NCBI GenBank assembly: GCA_018383975.1
Contig: JAHAZT010000060.1
Coordinates: 1,428-65,427 of the forward strand
Origin: Eubacteriales bacterium
GTDB taxonomy: Bacteria > Bacillota > Clostridia > Oscillospirales > CAG-272
Length of the DNA: 64,000 nt
Direction of reading: 5' to 3'
Positions 1 to 4,631 of this stretch are shown here, piece by piece (within the stretch, counting starts at the first letter, position 1; every line of letters begins with the position of its first letter). The notes under the pieces were generated by a model, which did no database searches, was not told the origin of the DNA, and saw only the letters and a list, made by a program, of their open reading frames with translations. The position numbers were made by a program, and so were the translations under genes.

Positions 1-726
1 TATAAAGCCCCTTGTTCCCTCCGGTCGCGACATTCTGTAAGCGTCGACGTTTTTTTGATTTTCCGTCGGAAATGACGTTTTTGTGATAACGGCTTTATCG
101 CAGAGAAAGTCCATGCAGCGGCTTATTTCTCCCGTCTCCGCTCCGACCTTTTCCGCAATGTATTCAAGACTTATGTATCTGTTTCCGCCGTATTCGTACA
201 TAACGTTAAGAATTTCCCTGTTGACCTTGCTGCTCAAAAACACGAAAAGCTCTTCGGTTTCATCCGTAAACAACTTTTTACCGACGTCATCAATGCCGAT
301 AAAGCCCGTATCCGGAGAATAATAAAGGCATTTTTCATATAGCTTTCCGAGTCCCGTTTCCCATGACGGATGCTCTTTCAGCTGTTCCTTTATCACGTCC
401 ACGCATTTTCTTTTTTCTTCCGCATTTTCCGGACGAAGACCCTTTCCGAAAAACATTCGCACCCTTGCGATAATAAGTCCGACAGTCTCTTCATATGCAC
501 GGCTCGGCGTCACACAGTCCGTGCCCGCATCGCAGCCGATGAGCGTATCGACCGTGATTGAAAACGCAGAAGCAAGCGGTGAAAGCATGCTTATATCCGG
601 TGCGCTTACGCTGTTTTCCCATTTTGATACCGTCTGCACCGAAACACCGATTTTATCCGCAAGCTCCTTCTGCGTATATCCGCATCTTTTTCTGAATTCT
701 GTTATGTTTGCGGCAATATCAACCAT
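1..726 (-). CDS. XRE-family helix-turn-helix transcriptional regulator; the C-terminal part runs off the window start
   Basis: This ORF is absent from the ORF track because it has no in-window stop. My reverse-strand translation from the ATG at 726-724 gives MVDIAANITEFRKRCGYTQKELADKIGVSVQTVSKWENSVSAPDISMLSPLA..., a classic Cro/C1 HTH. The frame stays open to position 1. Confidence 0.8.
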   Translation of the reverse strand, partial: MVDIAANITEFRKRCGYTQKELADKIGVSVQTVSKWENSVSAPDISMLSPLASAFSITVDTLIGCDAGTDCVTPSRAYEETVGLIIARVRMFFGKGLRPENAEEKRKCVDVIKEQLKEHPSWETGLGKLYEKCLYYSPDTGFIGIDDVGKKLFTDETEELFVFLSSKVNREILNVMYEYGGNRYISLEYIAEKVGAETGEISRCMDFLCDKAVITKTSFPTENQKNVDAYRMSRPEGTRGFI

Positions 727-757
727 TTCCGTCCTCCAATGTCCTGTATTTTATATG

Positions 758-786
758 ATTTTACCATTTGTGCGGCAAACTGTCAA
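758..786 (-). promoter_or_regulatory. Sigma-A type promoter of the XRE gene
   Basis: On the reverse strand TTGACA (786-781) is followed by a 17-nt spacer and TAAAAT (763-758), about 30 nt upstream of the ATG at 726. Confidence 0.5.
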
Positions 787-810
787 CCCTTGTGCGCAAA
801 CGTTTGTGCA
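768..810. promoter_or_regulatory. Candidate operator sites overlapping or abutting the XRE promoter
   Basis: An 18-bp imperfect palindrome TGCGCAAAC|GTTTGTGCA lies at 793-810, with 8 of 9 half-site positions matching. A related half-site TTGTGCGGCAAAC lies at 768-780 inside the promoter spacer. Confidence 0.4.
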
Positions 811-864
811 GGAAAAACAAATAGAAAAGAGGGTGTCCGCACGAGTGCCGACTCAGGCGAAATC

Positions 865-1181
865 GGGATTCGAATTCTCGCGTCTCGACGACGTCAGGTC
901 ACCTCGGCTCTGACGCGCCGCAGGCGCCTCATTCACCGCCGAGCCCGTTCGAATCCATTATCTCAAAAAACAATAGGGATTCGAATTCTCGCGGCTCGCC
1001 GCCGTCAGGTCACCTCGGCTCTGACCTGCCACCGGCAGGTCATTCACTACCGAGCCCGTTCGAATCCATTATCTCAAAAAAAATAATCGGGATTCGAATT
1101 CTCGCGTCTCGACGACGTCAGGTCACCACGGCTCTGACGCGCCGCAGGCGCCTCATTCACTACCGAGCCCGTTCGAATCCC
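865..1181. repeat. Three tandem copies of a ~92-nt palindromic-ended structured element, period 111-113 bp (units 865-956, 976-1067, 1089-1181)
   Basis: The three units align directly. Each starts with GGGATTCGAA and ends with TTCGAATCC(C). The A-rich spacer ATTATCTCAAAAAA is conserved. Internal hairpins differ between copies by compensatory changes. Confidence 0.9.
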
Positions 1182-1188
1182 TATAGCC

Positions 1189-1224
1189 AAAAGAAAAGAG
1201 CACCTCTTGGGTGCTCTTTTCTTT
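1189..1224 (-). terminator. Intrinsic, bidirectional-looking terminator downstream of tRNA-Gln
   Basis: The stem GAGCACC/GGTGCTC has a 5-nt loop and is flanked by AAAAGAAAA and TTTTCTTTT. Confidence 0.7.
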
Positions 1225-1298
1225 TGGCTGGGATATAGGGATTCGAACCCCAACATACAGAGTCAGAGTCTGCTGTGCTACCGTTACACAATATCCCA
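1225..1298 (-). tRNA. tRNA-Gln (anticodon CUG), CCA encoded
   Basis: The reverse complement is TGGGATATTGTGTAACGGTAGCACAGCAGACTCTGACTCTGTATGTTGGGGTTCGAATCCCTATATCCCAGCCA. It has a 7-bp acceptor stem, anticodon loop CTCTGAC and T-loop TTCGAAT. Confidence 0.9.
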
Positions 1299-1309
1299 TC
1301 GGTTGCGTA

Positions 1310-1322
1310 TGATAGTATATCA
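1310..1322. promoter_or_regulatory. Possible Fur-type operator upstream of feoAB
   Basis: The palindrome TGATAGTATATCA resembles a shortened Fur box (consensus TGATAATNATTATCA). Its position upstream of an iron-uptake operon is as expected. Confidence 0.25.
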
Positions 1323-1374
1323 AGACAGAAAGGATTTGTCAAGATTTTTTCGCAAAATTCTTGATAAAAATTTT

Positions 1375-1629
1375 ATGCGGAAAGAAAATGCTCTGTTCAT
1401 CGCAAAGGCGGGGGATGTTCTCACCGTCAAGGCCATAAACGCAAACGAAAGAAAACGGAATTTCTATACGTCGCTCGGCATTTTTCCGGGTAGCGAAATC
1501 ACGCTTTTTATGCGCGGAAAACACGGAGCGATTATAAAGTCCGGCAAGACAAAGCTCGCGCTGGCGGGAAAAGCCACCGAAGAAATTATTTGCATCGGAA
1601 CAGTAATAAACGGAAGCGGACGGGTATAA
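1375..1629 (+). CDS. feoA: FeoA-domain protein (ferrous iron transport protein A)
   Basis: This is an 84-aa small protein (…VLTVKAINANERKRNFYTSLGIFPGSEITLFMRGKHGAIIKSGKTKLALAG…) immediately upstream of feoB. I trimmed the start to the ATG at 1375 so that it does not overlap the tRNA. Confidence 0.8.
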   Translation: MRKENALFIAKAGDVLTVKAINANERKRNFYTSLGIFPGSEITLFMRGKHGAIIKSGKTKLALAGKATEEIICIGTVINGSGRV

Positions 1630-1668
1630 ATTTATACAAACCCGAAACAAAGAAAGGACGTCGACAAA

Positions 1669-3438
1669 ATGAAAAATACCCCCGTCATTGCACTTGCCGG
1701 CAATCCCAACAGCGGAAAAACGACGCTTTTCAACCTGCTGACAAAAAGCGGAGAAGCAACCGGAAACCGTGCCGGCGTAACGGTTTCCGCAAAGACTGCC
1801 CCTCTTAAAGCCGGTAATTACAGGGCGGATATCACGGACTTGCCCGGGACGTATTCCCTCTCTCCCTACGGCGACGAAGAAAAAGCGGCGGAACGCTTTA
1901 TAAAAAGCGGTGCGGCGGACGTCGTAATTGATGTTGCGGACGCAACAAATCTTGAAAGAAGTCTTTTTCTCGCAACGGAGCTTGCCGAACGTCACAGCAA
2001 GGTCATTCTTGCCCTGAATATGATGGATGAAGCCGAGCGCGACGGTATAAAAATCGACGCGGGACTTCTCTCGGGACAGCTGGGAATTCCCGTTGTTCCC
2101 ATATCGGCGGCAAAAAACATCGGCATTGAAGCGCTTATCGACGCGGCGCGGAACGCCGTGCCGGGAACGGCGCGATTTACCTTTTCCGGCGGCGAGGAAC
2201 GCAGTCGGTTTTGCCGCAGACTTGCGACGGAGGTGACGCACGGAGAAACCGCAAAAGTGCCTTTTTCGGACAGAGTCGACAGAATAATCTGCAAAAAATA
2301 TATCGGTCTGCCCCTGTTTTTCGCTGTTGTTTTCCTTATGTTTGCCGTGACGTTTTCCGGCGCCGTGAAGGCTCTTTCGGAGCTGCTTGTTTCGCTTTCG
2401 GACAGACTTTCCGAAGCCGTGTCGGCATGGCTTTCATCGATGGGCGCAGGCGCTTTTACGGTCGGACTTATTTCGGAGGGACTTATCAAAGGCACGGGGG
2501 CGGTGCTGTCGTTTCTGCCGCAGACGGCGGCACTGTTTTTTATGCTCGAATTGCTTGAAGACTCCGGCTATATGGCTCGCGCGGCGTACGTTTCGGACGG
2601 ACTTCTCCGCTCTGCGGGGCTTTCCGGAAAGGCTTTCATTCCTTTTCTTATGGGCTTTGGCTGTACCGTCCCCGCCGTTATGGCAACGGAAACACTCGAC
2701 CCTGCCGAGCGTCGTTCCGTGATATTTTCCCTGCCGTTTATACCGTGCAGCGCAAGGCTTCCGGTATTTACGATGATTATCGGAACGTTTTTTCCGGACC
2801 ATTCCGCCGTCGCGGCATTTCTTATATATTTTCTCGGCATTCTGACGGCATACATAAGCTCTCTGATATATTCAAAATCGAAAAAAGGGCGTGCCGCCCC
2901 GCCGCTTACTGTTGAACTGCCGAAATACCGTCTGCCGACCCTGAAAAATCTCGCAACGGCAATCAAGCACAAGCTGTTCGCATTCATATCCCGCGCAGGG
3001 ACGGTCGTTATGCTTTGCAGCGTTGCAGTGCATCTCTTATGCTCTCTTGACGGTCACCTCCGCCTGACCGCCGACCCGTCCAAAAGTCTCATGGCTCTTG
3101 CCGGAGGACTTATCGCGCCTCTGCTCTCTCCTCTCGGCATAGGCGATTGGCGCATCGCCGCATCGCTCATATCGGGCTTTTTCGCGAAGGAAACGATAGT
3201 GTCCTCTCTTTCAGTCATGTGTCCCGACGGATTGTCGCACCTTATCGGTGCCGCGGACGCCGTCGCTCTGTGCGTTTTTGTCCTGCTGTATTCCCCGTGC
3301 GCCGCAACGGTATCGGCTCAGAGACAGTATCTCGGACGCAAAAATTCCCTTTTTCTCATCGTCCGATGCATTGTTTTTGCGTATTTGGCGGCGTTGATTG
3401 CAAGAGCCGCACTTCGGTTTTTTGTCGGTTTTGCGTGA
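1669..3438 (+). CDS. feoB: Ferrous iron transporter FeoB
   Basis: It has an N-terminal G-domain (GNPNSGKTTLFN, DLPGTYSL) followed by a polytopic membrane domain; 589 aa. Confidence 0.95.
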   Translation: MKNTPVIALAGNPNSGKTTLFNLLTKSGEATGNRAGVTVSAKTAPLKAGNYRADITDLPGTYSLSPYGDEEKAAERFIKSGAADVVIDVADATNLERSLFLATELAERHSKVILALNMMDEAERDGIKIDAGLLSGQLGIPVVPISAAKNIGIEALIDAARNAVPGTARFTFSGGEERSRFCRRLATEVTHGETAKVPFSDRVDRIICKKYIGLPLFFAVVFLMFAVTFSGAVKALSELLVSLSDRLSEAVSAWLSSMGAGAFTVGLISEGLIKGTGAVLSFLPQTAALFFMLELLEDSGYMARAAYVSDGLLRSAGLSGKAFIPFLMGFGCTVPAVMATETLDPAERRSVIFSLPFIPCSARLPVFTMIIGTFFPDHSAVAAFLIYFLGILTAYISSLIYSKSKKGRAAPPLTVELPKYRLPTLKNLATAIKHKLFAFISRAGTVVMLCSVAVHLLCSLDGHLRLTADPSKSLMALAGGLIAPLLSPLGIGDWRIAASLISGFFAKETIVSSLSVMCPDGLSHLIGAADAVALCVFVLLYSPCAATVSAQRQYLGRKNSLFLIVRCIVFAYLAALIARAALRFFVGFA

Positions 3439-3528
3439 AAACGGAGCGTTTTTTGTAGAAAATAATTAAATATGAGAAATTGTATCGCATTATTTTTGTC
3501 ATATTTTTATTTTTTAATCAAAATACGC

Positions 3529-3557
3529 TTGACAATCTATTCCTATGCTGATACAAT
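3529..3557 (+). promoter_or_regulatory. Sigma-A type promoter of the sigma-factor gene
   Basis: TTGACA (3529-3534), a 17-nt spacer, then TACAAT (3552-3557). Confidence 0.55.
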
Positions 3558-3598
3558 GGTAATGTTAATAACTGTCTGAAAAAGTATAGTGAAATCAT

Positions 3599-4165
3599 AT
3601 GCAGCAAAGCTCTGAAATGCAAAAACTTATATTGGATATTCAAAACGGAGTGCCGCTCTCGTTTGAGTCGGTCTATTCGCTTTATATCCCCCTCATCAAT
3701 TCCGTTGCGGAAAAATACAGCGGCTCGTCTCTGACGGGCGCCGGACTTGAGGATTTGCGCCAGGAGGCGGCTATCGCTCTTTATGACGCGGCGCTCGCCT
3801 ATAATCCCGAGCGCGGAGTTTCCTTCGGGCTTTATGCAAAAATATGTATTAAAAACAGGATTATATCGTATCTGCGCACGATAGGCGGAAAAAGCGTCCG
3901 TACGGAGCCGCTCGAAAATGCCACGCAGGGAGTGATTATCCCGCAGGGCGATATAGACCCCGAAAAGCTGATAATAAGCAAAGAGTCCCTTGCAGACCTT
4001 GAAAGACGCATTTCCCTTTCCCTTACGGAACTCGAACGTTCCGTATTTGACCTTTACCTCGCGTCCGCTTCTTATGACGATATCTCCGCGGCACTTGGAA
4101 AACCCAAGAAATCCATCGACAACGCAATGCAACGAATCAAAGCGAAATTAAGAGAGCTTTTATAA
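3599..4165 (+). CDS. Sigma-70 family RNA polymerase sigma factor (small, ECF/SigH-like)
   Basis: 188 aa with a region-2-like segment (LRQEAAIALYDAALAYNPERGVSFGLYAKICIKNRIISYLR) and a region-4 HTH (LTELERSVFDLYLASASYDDISAALGKPKKSIDNAMQRIKAKL). Confidence 0.8.
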   Translation: MQQSSEMQKLILDIQNGVPLSFESVYSLYIPLINSVAEKYSGSSLTGAGLEDLRQEAAIALYDAALAYNPERGVSFGLYAKICIKNRIISYLRTIGGKSVRTEPLENATQGVIIPQGDIDPEKLIISKESLADLERRISLSLTELERSVFDLYLASASYDDISAALGKPKKSIDNAMQRIKAKLRELL

Positions 4166-4352
4166 TCTTTTCAATGTCCCTCCGGGACAATCATATACAA
4201 TATACCAAAATAAAACTTTCCGTGTTTTGTTTTCGTTTTCACATGCCCGAATAGCTTAATGGCAGAGCGTTGTAATTCAAAGGTGTCGGTCGGAATCCGT
4301 CTTGGGGCAAAAATAAATAATTTTTCATACAAAACAAAGCGAGGTAGAACAA

Positions 4353-4631
4353 ATGTATCAGGACAAAACATTGGTTTGCAAGGATTGCGGAGCCGAATTC
4401 GTATTCACAGCGGGCGAGCAGGAATTCTATGCCGAAAAGGGCTTCCAGAACGAGCCCCAGAGATGTAAGAGCTGCCGCAACGCGAAGAAGAACGCGGGCA
4501 AGCCCCAGAGAGAAATGCACACGGCAATCTGCGCAAACTGCGGCAAAGAGGCAAAGGTTCCCTTTGAGCCGACAAGCGACAAACCCGTTTATTGCAGCGA
4601 GTGCTACGCGGCAATGAGAGAAAGCAAATAA
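4353..4631 (+). CDS. Small zinc-ribbon protein with two CxxC…CxxC units
   Basis: 92 aa containing CKDCG…CKSCR and CANCG…CSECY. An RBS GAGG lies upstream of the ATG. Confidence 0.8.
   Translation: MYQDKTLVCKDCGAEFVFTAGEQEFYAEKGFQNEPQRCKSCRNAKKNAGKPQREMHTAICANCGKEAKVPFEPTSDKPVYCSECYAAMRESK

What the first reader, a model, noticed from the sequence alone, without database searches (positions are those of the whole stretch)
865..1181. Three tandem ~92-nt structured elements with compensatory stem changes, next to tRNA-Gln
Seen in sequence:
- Units at 865-956, 976-1067 and 1089-1181 are near-identical. Each is bounded by the inverted repeats GGGATTCGAA and TTCGAATCC(C), which could form a closing stem of about 10 bp.
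- The end motif is the palindromic core of the canonical tRNA T-arm (GGTTCGAATCC).
- The few differences between copies concentrate in two internal hairpins and preserve pairing.
- Hairpin 1 (plus strand) is TGACGCGCC-GCA-GGCGCCTCA in units 1 and 3, and TGACCTGCC-ACC-GGCAGGTCA in unit 2. Two base pairs are swapped, and a C-C mismatch becomes a C:G pair.
- Hairpin 2 is CGTC…GACG in units 1 and 3, and CGGC…GCCG in unit 2.
- On the minus strand (the tRNA-Gln strand), units 3 and 2 are followed by U runs (GAUUAUUUUUUUU and UAUUGUUUUUU).
- On the same strand, units 2 and 1 are preceded by TGAGATAAT, which resembles an extended -10.
- The unit 3 end together with the tRNA terminator and the tRNA 3' end forms a large imperfect palindrome centred near 1207.

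Inference: selection is acting on structure, so this is either a tandem array of small structured RNAs or a structured DNA element such as a MITE/REP-like or recombination site. I cannot match it from memory to a known RNA family. It is not a cloverleaf, a hammerhead core or a CRISPR array.

Caveat: the -10-like box abuts the unit, so a transcript started there would lose part of the closing stem.
Basis: partly seen in the sequence, partly recalled or inferred. Interest (0 to 1): 0.75.

Follow-up and report, generated by a model that had tools for sequence, protein, structure and literature searches.

The report
tRNA-linked structured DNA repeat family
The three repeats after the tRNA-Gln gene are real, partly decayed copies of a widespread, undescribed hairpin-forming element of gut Clostridia and their phages that sits next to tRNA genes and evolves like folded DNA, probably a small mobile element, rather than like an RNA gene.

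Summary
Three about 92-nt units (865-956, 976-1067, 1089-1180; period about 112) lie downstream of tRNA-Gln on its strand. No Rfam family matches them.

They belong to a large family. In 24 of 27 related genome loci the element lies 45-60 nt after a tRNA gene and its terminator. Metagenome loci add more tRNA types and tmRNA. Its 3' stem strand begins a copy of that gene's own T-loop-to-CCA end. Its 5' stem strand is the reverse complement of that copy.

The same 65-78-nt core also occurs in phage and chromosomal intergenic DNA, in either orientation, at the tip of other hairpins.

- Covariation is strong: 18 of 20 pairs change on both sides.
- Wobble pairs are almost absent: 13 G-T against 24 A-C in 2224 pairs. 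tRNA stems from the same loci show 35 against 1.
- The core is present or absent between near-identical sequences.
- Once it interrupts a tRNA-Arg T-loop between TTCG repeats.
- No enzyme gene is linked.

Best reading, confidence about 0.45: a non-autonomous DNA module that folds as single-stranded DNA. The window array is a recombining, degenerate tandem cluster. An RNA role is not excluded.

The parts
1089..1180 (-). Unit 3, next to the tRNA. Sub-parts: P1 5' strand 1172-1180; P2 5' strand 1163-1170; internal loop TAGTGAA 1156-1162; P3 hairpin 1135-1155; P2 3' strand 1127-1131 (one mismatch); junction GTGACCTGA 1118-1126; P4 hairpin 1105-1117; CGAGAA 1099-1104; P1 3' strand 1090-1098.
   Evidence: Core model hit at 1105-1184, 59.9 bits.
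976..1067 (-). Unit 2. Sub-parts: P1 5' strand 1059-1067; P3 hairpin 1022-1042 (variant TGACCTGCC-GGT-GGCAGGTCA); P4 hairpin 992-1004 (CGGC...GCCG); P1 3' strand 977-985.
   Evidence: Core model hit at 992-1071, 63.4 bits. The same P3 occurs in L011, L034, L041 and L061.
865..956 (-). Unit 1, farthest from the tRNA. Sub-parts: P1 5' strand 948-956; P3 hairpin 911-931; P4 hairpin 881-893; P1 3' strand 866-874.
   Evidence: Core model hit at 881-960, 56.2 bits.
1068..1088 (-). Spacer between units 3 and 2 (GATTATTTTTTTTGAGATAAT). It looks like what remains after loss of the tRNA 3'-end copy and terminator hairpin that separate units in other species.
   Evidence: compared with the full modules of L039 and L012. 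The deletion origin is inferred.
957..975 (-). Spacer between units 2 and 1 (TATTGTTTTTTGAGATAAT). With the C that ends unit 2 it reads CTAT, the first four bases of the tRNA-Gln 3' end after the T-loop (CTATATCCCAG).
1225..1298 (-). tRNA-Gln(CTG) gene with encoded CCA. Its T-loop and 3' end supply the sequence repeated in the stems of the units.
   Evidence: ARAGORN. Rfam tRNA, 61 bits. Promoter-like TTGACA-17-TATACT at 1342-1314.
1187..1227 (-). Terminator hairpin of the tRNA (CCAAAAGAAAAGAGCACC / GGTGCTCTTTTCTTTTGG), which includes the CCA.
   Evidence: Hairpin-type matches.
1172..1247 (.). Large imperfect palindrome. It comprises the tRNA T-loop and 3' end, the terminator, and an inverted copy (CTATAGGGATTCGAA) that is also the P1 5' strand of unit 3.
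   Evidence: The 8 bases 5' of TTCGAA match the reverse complement of the tRNA 3' side at 8 of 8 positions.
811..852 (-). Imperfect hairpin (835-852) and T-rich tract (811-833) after the last unit, possibly the distal terminator.
   Evidence: Read from the sequence. Not flagged by the scan.

Best explanation
The three units are tandem, partly degenerate copies of a non-coding DNA module. Its core is 65-78 nt. It has a long arm (P2-P3) with a conserved internal loop TAGTGAA/GAG, a junction GACCGAG, a short hairpin P4 and then CGAGA.

The core always sits at the tip of a host hairpin. Next to tRNA and tmRNA genes, that hairpin is built from a direct copy of the gene's T-loop-to-3' end and an inverted copy of the T-loop and T-stem 3' strand.

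I propose that the module works as folded single-stranded DNA. It would be a non-autonomous insertion or recombination element that lands in hairpin loops, the T-loop TTCGAA above all. An enzyme encoded elsewhere would move it, either an HUH/Y1-type single-strand transposase or a recombinase that accepts folded substrates. Once at a tRNA locus it would expand and contract by unequal recombination between the repeated stems.

Shown:
- family membership;
- position after tRNA and tmRNA genes;
- the direct and inverted copies of the tRNA 3' side;
- covariation without wobble pairs;
- presence/absence polymorphism;
- one clean T-loop insertion;
- copy-number variation among strains;
- no linked gene.

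Inferred:
- single-stranded DNA as the active form;
- mobility in trans and the type of enzyme;
- the route by which the inverted copy arises.
For: 1. Family and context.
- A genome scan found 27 true relatives, all in Clostridia/Eubacteriales assemblies. In 24 the element lies 45-60 nt after a tRNA gene on the same strand. The other three follow a partial tRNA or a contig end.
- Targets include Gln, Ser, Ala, Arg, Thr, Gly and tmRNA.
- The 3' stem strand is followed by an exact copy of that gene's 3' end and CCA.
- The 5' stem strand matches the reverse complement of the cognate 3' side at 5.9 of 8 positions (4.7 contiguous). A direct copy of the T-arm 5' half would give 3.3 of 8 (0.25 contiguous).

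2. DNA-like stems.
- P2 and P3 of 137 distinct units hold 2144 Watson-Crick pairs, 13 G-T, 24 A-C and 43 other mismatches.
- Acceptor and T stems of 50 tRNA genes from the same loci hold 559 Watson-Crick, 35 G-U and 1 A-C. Fisher p = 7.6e-9.
- Covariation is nevertheless strong.
- The version not next to a tRNA carries covarying mini-hairpins with GNA triloops (GCGAAGC, ACGAAGT, GTGAAAC). These are known as unusually stable DNA hairpins (my own knowledge).

3. A discrete, movable segment.
- L147 and L149 have flanks 98-100% identical. The 77-nt core in L147 is replaced by GC in the loop of a host hairpin in L149.
- In L077 the core sits inside the T-loop of a tRNA-Arg gene between TTCG repeats. 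Deleting it in silico restores a tRNA that ARAGORN calls.

4. Behaves like dispersed repeats.
- There are 1-3 copies per phage contig.
- It is intergenic, and its orientation relative to flanking ORFs is about random: 20 same, 18 opposite, 20 mixed.
- Identical P3 variants occur in different species and backgrounds.
- Strains of the window's species carry 1, 2 or 3 units with mosaic differences.

5. No match in Rfam 15, GenBank phages or PLSDB plasmids.
Against: - No transposase or recombinase is linked to the element in about 160 loci, so mobility in trans is only inferred.
- There are only two filled/empty pairs and one T-loop insertion. One pair has flanks only about 83% identical, and the junctions do not show one consistent footprint or target duplication.
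- Precise loss by replication slippage would also give present/absent pairs.
- One position at the base of P2 alternates G-U with A-U (34 against 28). That is strand-specific and looks RNA-like.
- Several copies have a -10-like box upstream and a terminator downstream, so transcription is possible.
- The conserved junction with tandem G-A next to P4 would also fit an RNA tertiary motif.
- Retrieval used fixed sequence patterns and many sequences are related, so the counts are not independent events.
- The origin of the inverted copy of the tRNA 3' side is unexplained.
Confidence: 0.45

Rival explanations
1. The element is a folded attachment site of small integrative elements. It would be the single-stranded attP-like site of elements that integrate into the T-loop of tRNA and tmRNA genes through a tyrosine recombinase supplied in trans, as CTX phage attP(+) and integron attC do. 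The inverted and direct T-loop copies would pair to mimic the target. After exchange of one strand and replication, the hairpin ends up next to the displaced original tRNA 3' end, and the element supplies a new 3' end and terminator. The units seen would be cargo-less mini-elements or scars, stacked by repeated integration.
For: - The order tRNA, new 3' end with CCA, terminator, spacer, inverted copy, core, direct copy, original 3' end is exactly what this model predicts.
- The direct repeat starts in the T-loop and runs 24-35 nt past the CCA, as at T-loop integration sites (the site classification is my own knowledge of Williams 2002).
- In L039 and L012 the modules repeat together with their tRNA 3' end and terminator.
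- In L012 a 4.7-kb insert with a MobA/MobL relaxase fragment lies inside one module's terminator.
- The stems are DNA-like.
Against: - No integrase lies next to any copy.
- The same core occurs at many different tRNAs, each with a matching 3' end. A site-specific element would have to re-acquire that end each time.
- The same core also lies in hairpins unrelated to tRNAs in phages and chromosomes.
- The islands seen at these loci use other crossover points or insert elsewhere.
- The paired stem gives one half-site plus the overlap, not a full two-arm core site.
Confidence: 0.2
2. The units are genes for, or processed parts of, a small structured RNA: a three-way junction closed by pairing with a T-loop copy and carrying a tRNA-like 3' tail. 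It would be made from its own promoter or by read-through from the tRNA. It would act on tRNA metabolism or as a decoy or ribozyme.
For: - Covariation is strong and junction nucleotides are highly conserved.
- Tandem G-A pairs flank P4, and this G-A changes together with the junction in the tRNA-Ala subgroup (GAG...CGAGAA against AAG...CGCGAA).
- One position alternates G-U with A-U.
- The element always lies on the same strand as the tRNA.
- Some copies have -10-like boxes such as TGAGATAAT, and terminators follow many copies.
- Elements at the same tRNA in several species suggest retention.
Against: - G-U is no more frequent than A-C in 2224 stem pairs, while tRNA stems from the same DNA show 35 against 1.
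- A terminator separates the element from the tRNA.
- The -10-like box abuts the stem in the window, so a transcript would lose it.
- Orientation is random relative to genes in phages.
- In contig L045, copies lie antisense between the terminase and portal genes.
- There are present/absent copies and no Rfam match.
- The hammerhead core is not met.
Confidence: 0.2
3. The element is a single-strand replication or priming signal, like the single-strand origins (sso) of rolling-circle plasmids and conjugative elements. It would be recognised as folded DNA by RNA polymerase or primase.
For: - The stems are DNA-like.
- The element occurs in phages and near mobile DNA.
- It shares hexamers with the two conserved ssoA elements: TAGCGA against CS-6 TAGCGT, and GCGAGAA against RSB GCCGAGAAAA (sequences from PMC4598088).
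Against: - The two motifs are in the opposite order to ssoA, and they match only at hexamer level.
- blastn found no similarity to PLSDB plasmids.
- A priming role explains neither the tRNA 3'-end copies nor the tandem arrays nor the present/absent copies.
- Known sso are about 160 nt and sit in replicons that pass through a single-stranded stage.
Confidence: 0.05
4. The array is a functionless by-product: decaying tRNA pseudogene fragments or local duplications made by template switching at the tRNA terminator, with apparent structure inherited from the tRNA.
For: - The palindromic TTCGAA and the terminator hairpin would favour template switching.
- The window's units are degenerate: shorter P2, an altered junction and no 3'-end copy.
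Against: - The core has no similarity to tRNA-Gln beyond the T-loop.
- The core is conserved with covariation across many species, many tRNAs and phages.
- The inverted copy tracks each cognate gene.
Confidence: 0.05

Closest known systems
REP/REPIN elements and IS200/IS605-derived palindrome-associated elements (moved in trans by HUH Y1 transposases)
   Same: - Short, non-coding and dispersed in intergenic DNA in either orientation.
- Defined by imperfect hairpins with conserved unpaired bases.
- Stems kept Watson-Crick at DNA level.
- No gene of their own.
- Present/absent copies without a regular target duplication.
   Different: - The core here is a branched three-way junction at the tip of a host hairpin, not one or two simple hairpins.
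- A long stem strand, not a 4-nt guide, is complementary to the neighbouring tRNA sequence.
- No TnpA or RAYT gene was seen near any copy.
- Copy number per genome is unknown.
Folded single-strand recombination sites: integron attC and CTX phage attP(+)
   Same: - Structure rather than sequence is conserved in the stems.
- Specific unpaired bases are conserved.
- Two inverted copies of a target-like sequence, separated by tens of bases, pair to mimic the target.
- After integration the hairpin stays at one end, next to the original target half.
   Different: - There are no attC R/L core motifs.
- There is no integron integrase, and no Xer/dif-like two-arm site.
- The target is a tRNA T-loop.
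- The same core also occurs far from any tRNA.
T-loop integration sites of tyrosine-integrase genomic islands in tRNA and tmRNA genes
   Same: - The direct repeat starts in the T-loop and runs through the 3' end of the gene.
- The functional gene keeps a complete 3' end.
- Tandem accretion occurs at the same gene.
- tmRNA is also used.
   Different: - The 'island' is only about 150-170 nt and carries no integrase.
- The repeat is joined to a conserved structured core and an inverted copy.
- One core family is found at many different tRNAs.
Bacterial MITE-like structured repeats (ERIC, BOX, RUP, Correia elements)
   Same: - Intergenic, about 100-170 nt and highly structured.
- Modular, with optional internal segments.
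- Copies are present or absent between relatives.
   Different: - There are no family-wide terminal inverted repeats. The 'terminal repeats' are copied from the target.
- No parent insertion sequence is known.
- The link to tRNA genes is strict in one subgroup.
ssoA-type single-strand origins
   Same: - Firmicute mobile DNA.
- Function (for ssoA) depends on a folded single strand with two short conserved motifs.
- TAGCG and CGAGAA hexamers are shared.
   Different: - The motif order is reversed and the element is half the size.
- The genomic context differs.
- Activity was not tested.

Membership tests
tRNA / tRNA-like gene | Cloverleaf with D, anticodon and T arms, detected by ARAGORN or the Rfam tRNA model | tested here: not met
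   ARAGORN and Rfam call only tRNA-Gln at 1225-1298, plus a weak hit at 4245-4309. Nothing is called in 865-1181 on either strand at E up to 10.
Any Rfam 15 RNA family | Covariance-model match at or near the gathering score | tested here: not met
   No match overlaps the units in the window, in phage-type copies or in host hairpins.
Hammerhead ribozyme | Three-way junction with invariant CUGANGA and GAAA strands and a UH cleavage site | tested here: not met
   The junction is YGACC(G/A)AG ... CG(A/C)GAA. The U of CUGA is not conserved, extra bases are present, and no Rfam hammerhead model hits.
Structured RNA in general | Stems tolerate G-U far more than A-C | tested here: not met
   13 G-U against 24 A-C in 2224 pairs. 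The tRNA control gives 35 against 1 in 600 pairs, p = 7.6e-9. One position is an exception.
Structured RNA in general | A discrete transcript | not testable with these tools
   No expression data are available. The promoter and terminator scan found nothing at the units.
Integron attC site | R''/R' core motifs RYYYAAC ... GTTRRRY closing an imperfect hairpin | tested here: not met
   The stem ends read TTCGAAC ... ATTCGAA, which do not fit the motifs (sequence).
Integron attC site | Arrays of gene cassettes near an integron integrase | tested here: not met
   Units are separated by about 20 nt with no cassettes, and no integrase family appears among the neighbours.
REP/REPIN or IS200/IS605-derived element | Hairpin with a conserved 5' tetranucleotide guide, many dispersed copies, and a Y1 transposase or RAYT in the genome | tested here: inconclusive
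   GTAG precedes the P3 arm, and dispersed copies occur in either orientation. No Y1 gene lies within about 5 kb of any copy. Whole genomes could not be surveyed.
MITE | Family-wide terminal inverted repeats and a fixed target-site duplication | tested here: not met
   The stems differ by host and are copied from the target. A TTCG repeat is seen in L077, but there is none in L147/L149.
T-loop-class integrative element (att sites) | Direct repeat from the T-loop through the 3' end, flanking the inserted DNA | tested here: met
   Repeats of 24-35 nt begin at TTCGAATCC in L012, L014, L015, L021, L025, L027, L039 and others. They are not retained in the window's own spacers.
T-loop-class integrative element (att sites) | An integrase gene inside the element | tested here: not met
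   The inserted DNA is about 150-170 nt and non-coding. There is no integrase among the neighbours.
ssoA single-strand origin | RSB (TTATGCCGAGAAAATTT) followed by CS-6 (TAGCGT) in a hairpin of about 160 nt | tested here: not met
   Only hexamers are shared, and they are in the reverse order. blastn finds no similarity to plasmids. Priming activity was not tested.
CRISPR array | Short repeats of 24-40 nt separated by unique spacers of similar length | tested here: not met
   92-nt units are separated by near-identical 19-21-nt T-rich spacers.

The most novel reading that the evidence does not exclude
The element represents an undescribed class of mobile DNA in gut Clostridia and their phages. 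It would be a gene-less module of 65-78 nt that folds as single-stranded DNA into a three-way junction. It would home to hairpin loops, especially the T-loop of tRNA and tmRNA genes. It would be flanked there by a target copy and a newly made inverted copy of the target. An enzyme not yet identified would move it.
Probability: 0.3. Interest if true: 0.8.

Novelty: new variant of a known kind. Interest (0 to 1): 0.6.

Why it matters
If the DNA-level reading is right, this is an abundant, unannotated repeat family in human and animal gut Clostridia and their phages.

- It marks and reshapes tRNA and tmRNA loci, which are the main landing sites for genomic islands.
- It is a natural case in which a tiny element carries a sequence complementary to its target.
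- It points to a single-strand DNA enzyme that has not been identified.

Practical consequences:
- The repeats can mislead RNA-motif discovery, because they show strong covariation without being RNA.
- They can confuse tRNA annotation and metagenome assembly at tRNA loci.

If instead the element is an RNA, it would be a new, widespread tRNA-linked RNA class.

Tried and rejected
Hypotheses rejected:
- tRNA, selenocysteine tRNA or allo-tRNA. I tried to fit 9/3 or 8/4 cloverleaves by hand on both strands. There is no anticodon arm, and ARAGORN and Rfam are negative.
- Hammerhead or another known small ribozyme. The resemblance CUGA..GAG[stem]CGAGAA does not survive the family alignment.
- Decayed tRNA 5' half as the origin of the 5' stem strand. 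It is the reverse complement of the 3' side, not a direct copy of the 5' half.
- A link between the units and the islands beside them:
  - L012, relaxase fragment: it interrupts a terminator loop.
  - L031, filamentous-phage-type Rep: it uses an anticodon-loop crossover.
  - L041, CBASS and type I restriction-modification: it also uses an anticodon-loop crossover.

Searches that found nothing:
- A conserved neighbouring protein. The two largest clusters were spurious antisense ORFs through the repeat itself. One was an artificial N-terminal extension of a MatE gene. The rest were housekeeping genes.
- blastn of the array and of a phage-type copy against GenBank phages and PLSDB plasmids.
- The stem-based pattern in viral contigs: no hit.
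- Literature searches by sequence strings and by context: nothing relevant.
- The pMV158 record, wanted for a direct ssoA comparison, was not in the plasmid collection.
Full report
**1. The observation**

The region holds one tandem array at 861-1180, with period 111-113 and about 3 copies at 84-86% identity. The units are best read on the minus strand, which also carries tRNA-Gln(CTG) at 1225-1298. On that strand they are 1180-1089, 1067-976 and 956-865.

Unit motifs occur three times in the window, against about 0.1 expected by chance. A covariance model built later finds only these three copies in 64 kb: 56-63 bits, next best 11 bits.

- the closing stem GGATTCGAA/TTCGAATCC;
- the two hairpins whose differences are paired;
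- the T-rich spacers and TGAGATAAT;
- the large palindrome with the tRNA terminator, which I place at 1172-1247.

Each unit folds better than shuffled sequence on either strand. No Rfam family matches the units at E up to 10 on either strand.

**2. Variation within the species**

I fetched contigs that encode the identical FeoB protein next to the array. They carry 1, 2 or 3 units at this site. The differences are mosaic: two hairpin-1 variants, three junction variants, and hairpin-2 intermediates that break a pair. One contig, L001, has different DNA directly after the tRNA.

The array is therefore unstable in copy number and recombines. Collapse of repeats during assembly cannot be excluded for individual contigs.

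**3. A large family tied to tRNA genes**

I scanned one genome per species for the two stem ends. This gave 32 loci. Twenty-seven are true relatives, all in Clostridia/Eubacteriales assemblies from gut or rumen.

In 24 of them the element lies 45-60 nt downstream of a tRNA gene on the same strand, after that gene's terminator. The other three follow a partial tRNA left by an island, or the contig ends there. The genes are Gln-CTG, Ser-GGA/CGA, Ala-CGC and Arg-ACG/CCG. Metagenome loci add Thr, Gly, other Ala genes and tmRNA.

The layout is constant:
1. the tRNA ending in CCA;
2. a terminator;
3. a short A-rich spacer;
4. the 5' stem strand;
5. the core;
6. the 3' stem strand TTCGAATCC;
7. an exact copy of that tRNA's own T-stem 3' strand, acceptor 3' strand, discriminator and CCA, plus a few more bases;
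8. often a second terminator.

So the 'T-arm-like' end motif is a real copy of the neighbouring gene's T-loop-to-3' end. The repeat is 24-35 nt long.

The 5' stem strand is the reverse complement of that copy. The 8 bases beyond TTCGAA match the inverted cognate sequence at 5.9 of 8 positions, with 4.7 contiguous. A direct copy of the T-arm 5' half would match at 3.3 of 8, with 0.25 contiguous. This is over 28 distinct units, and the window scores 8 of 8. Where the T-loop differs, the 5' strand follows it: TCGACTCC in tmRNA, TCGAGTC, GATTCTCC.

In L039 and L012 the tandem period includes the tRNA 3' end and the terminator. The window's 19-21-nt spacers look like what remains after these were deleted. 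That origin is an inference.

**4. The same core away from tRNAs**

I then searched with a pattern from the internal conserved motifs instead of the stem. It hit 11 true viral contigs.

Most of these copies have other closing stems and extra hairpins. They lie in intergenic DNA of contigs with portal, terminase and endolysin genes, and of ordinary chromosomes. There are one to three copies per locus. Orientation relative to flanking ORFs (crude six-frame calls) is about random: 20 same, 18 opposite, 20 mixed.

In contig L045, one copy lies antisense between the terminase and portal genes, and a second also lies antisense to the genes around it. Rfam, GenBank phages and PLSDB plasmids give no match.

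**5. Structure**

The family consensus, read on the tRNA strand, is:
- closing stem;
- C or AAGC, which in the non-tRNA form lies in a mini-hairpin NN-GNA-N'N';
- P2, 7-10 bp;
- (U/G)AGUGAA;
- P3, 8-10 bp with a 3-nt loop;
- GAG;
- P2';
- (Y)GACC(G/A)AG;
- P4, 2-6 bp, often with a CGCA loop;
- CG(A/C)GA(A);
- closing stem.

I aligned 117 hits to the core model. 93% of cells pair, against 30-44% when partners are slid. Eighteen of 20 pairs change on both sides. No shuffle out of 500 reaches the observed values.

The window's units score lower than typical members. Their P2 is cut to 5 bp, with a mismatch in unit 3. The junction reads GGUGACCUGA instead of CCUGACCGAG. The tRNA 3'-end copy is missing. 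In other strains the tRNA-proximal unit still has the consensus junction.

**6. RNA or DNA**

This is the main discriminating result.

| Stems counted | Watson-Crick | G-T (G-U) | A-C | other |
|---|---|---|---|---|
| P2 and P3 of 137 distinct units | 2144 | 13 | 24 | 43 |
| Acceptor and T stems of 50 distinct tRNA genes, same loci | 559 | 35 | 1 | 5 |

The difference is large. Fisher's test gives p = 7.6e-9 for G-U against A-C. The G-U share of pairs is 0.6% against 5.8%, p = 1.4e-14.

Wobble pairs are thus as disfavoured as A-C, even though many stem columns show all four Watson-Crick types. That is what pairing in DNA predicts, and not what an RNA predicts.

Other points in the same direction:
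- the covarying GNA-triloop mini-hairpins such as GCGAAGC, which I know as unusually stable DNA hairpins (stability from my own knowledge);
- the random orientation in phages;
- the terminator that separates the element from the tRNA.

Against this:
- one position at the base of P2 alternates G-U with A-U (34 against 28), which is strand-specific;
- some copies have a -10-like box upstream and a terminator downstream.

Transcription is therefore not excluded.

**7. A discrete, movable segment**

L147 and L149 have flanks 98-100% identical. L147 holds the 77-nt core GTAGCGAAGC...GCAGCGAGAA. L149 has GC in its place, in the loop of a host hairpin GCTCGAGGGG[..]AAAGGCCCCACTCGA. L172 and L097 show the same kind of difference, with more diverged flanks.

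In L077, tandem tRNA-Arg(CCG) genes carry the core inside the T-loop, as GGGG-TTCG-[63 nt]-TTCG-AATCCC. Removing the 67 nt between the repeats in silico restores a tRNA that ARAGORN calls. An intact copy follows. This is the only such case among about 160 units.

Identical P3 hairpins occur in different species and backgrounds. The 'compensatory changes' between the window's units are therefore different family variants brought together, not changes that arose in place.

**8. No linked enzyme**

I clustered ORFs within 2.5 kb, and then across whole loci. No recurrent family appeared beyond spurious antisense ORFs through the repeat and housekeeping genes.

Islands seen at some loci are unrelated to the core:
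- L012, MobA/MobL fragment with an AAA ATPase: it interrupts a terminator loop.
- L031, filamentous-phage-type Rep: it uses an anticodon-loop crossover.
- L041, CBASS with type I restriction-modification: it also uses an anticodon-loop crossover.

**9. Interpretation**

Best reading, confidence about 0.45: the element is a non-autonomous DNA module that functions as folded single-stranded DNA and sits at hairpin tips. It has a strong preference for the T-loop palindrome TTCGAA of tRNA and tmRNA genes or of their displaced 3' fragments. Unequal recombination then amplifies it locally. The window array is a degenerate example.

What is shown:
- family membership;
- the tRNA context;
- the direct and inverted target copies;
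- wobble-free covariation;
- presence/absence polymorphism;
- the T-loop insertion;
- copy-number variation among strains.

What is inferred:
- the single-stranded DNA form;
- movement in trans;
- the kind of enzyme;
- how the inverted copy arises.

The rivals are:
- a folded attP-like site of mini integrative elements that use a T-loop-class recombinase (0.2). This explains the gene order well, but not the non-tRNA copies or the many targets;
- a small structured RNA (0.2);
- a single-strand priming signal (0.05). It shares only two hexamers with ssoA, in the wrong order;
- functionless tRNA debris (0.05).

**10. Caveats**

- Retrieval used fixed sequence patterns, so conservation of those motifs is partly built in.
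- Many sequences are related, so counts are not independent events.
- ORF calls in GC-rich DNA are crude.
- There are few filled/empty pairs.
- There are no expression data.

Noticed in passing
window 4245-4309 (+): Rfam calls a weak tRNA (39.7 bits, gathering score 29) that ARAGORN does not report. It lies just upstream of a small zinc-ribbon gene (4353-4631, zf_Tbcl family in the related loci) and after a sigma-70-type gene. It could be a degenerate or unusual tRNA.
   Followed up: no
L001 (same species as the window; locus coordinates about 1-3560): In one strain the tRNA-Gln is followed at once by different DNA with three ORFs (one has a weak SnoaL_2 hit) and an inverted tRNA-like T-arm fragment, instead of the repeat array. 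This is probably an island integrated at the tRNA 3' end. The contig ends before its far side.
   Followed up: partly
L077 7560-7951 (-): Tandem tRNA-Arg(CCG) genes. The upstream copies carry the structured core inside the T-loop between TTCG repeats, and the last copy is intact and has the terminator. Removing the insert in silico restores a tRNA that ARAGORN calls.
   Followed up: yes
L147 about 2860-3300 against L149 about 3320-3750: Many metagenome loci share a small unit: a -10-like GATAAT, the hairpin GGGGAGCTCGAGGGG...CCCCACTCGA, then a terminator. It exists with or without the 77-nt core in its apical loop. It may be an unannotated small RNA gene or another repeat that hosts the core.
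   Followed up: partly
L031 5120-7860: An integrated element that encodes a filamentous-phage-type replication protein (REP_ORF2-G2P) and an HTH protein. It abuts a partial tRNA-Ser(GGA) that starts in the anticodon loop, directly upstream of a terminator, the core and the tRNA 3'-end copy.
   Followed up: partly
L041 276-5760: A defence island lies next to a partial tRNA-Ser(TGA), followed by two copies of the core. The island holds a CBASS-like pair (SMODS cyclase and an HNH-SAVED effector) and type I restriction-modification genes (HsdM, HsdS).
   Followed up: no
L034 about 1162-1294 (-): The tRNA-proximal unit of a related species carries an internal duplication of the junction and P4 segment (GGTGACCTGACGTCGTCGAGACTGACCGAGCGTCGTCGAGACG). 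This suggests slippage or recombination between the two junction variants.
   Followed up: no
L045 4400-4600, 9040-9240, 12560-12800: In one phage contig the three copies share about 40 further conserved bases after the closing stem (GGGGTCGCC..GGTG..TGCCAATGGGGAAAAGA). The repeated unit there is at least 170 nt. It may include a promoter-like or regulatory phage repeat.
   Followed up: no
window 1-724 (-) and 758-786 (-): The gene after the array is an XRE-type HTH protein (266 aa in related contigs) with its own near-consensus promoter (TTGACA-17-TAAAAT). XRE-type HTH genes (356 and 371 aa scanned) also lie near the element in four other tRNA-linked loci (L012, L021, L144, L146). This may be shared synteny rather than a functional link.
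   Followed up: no
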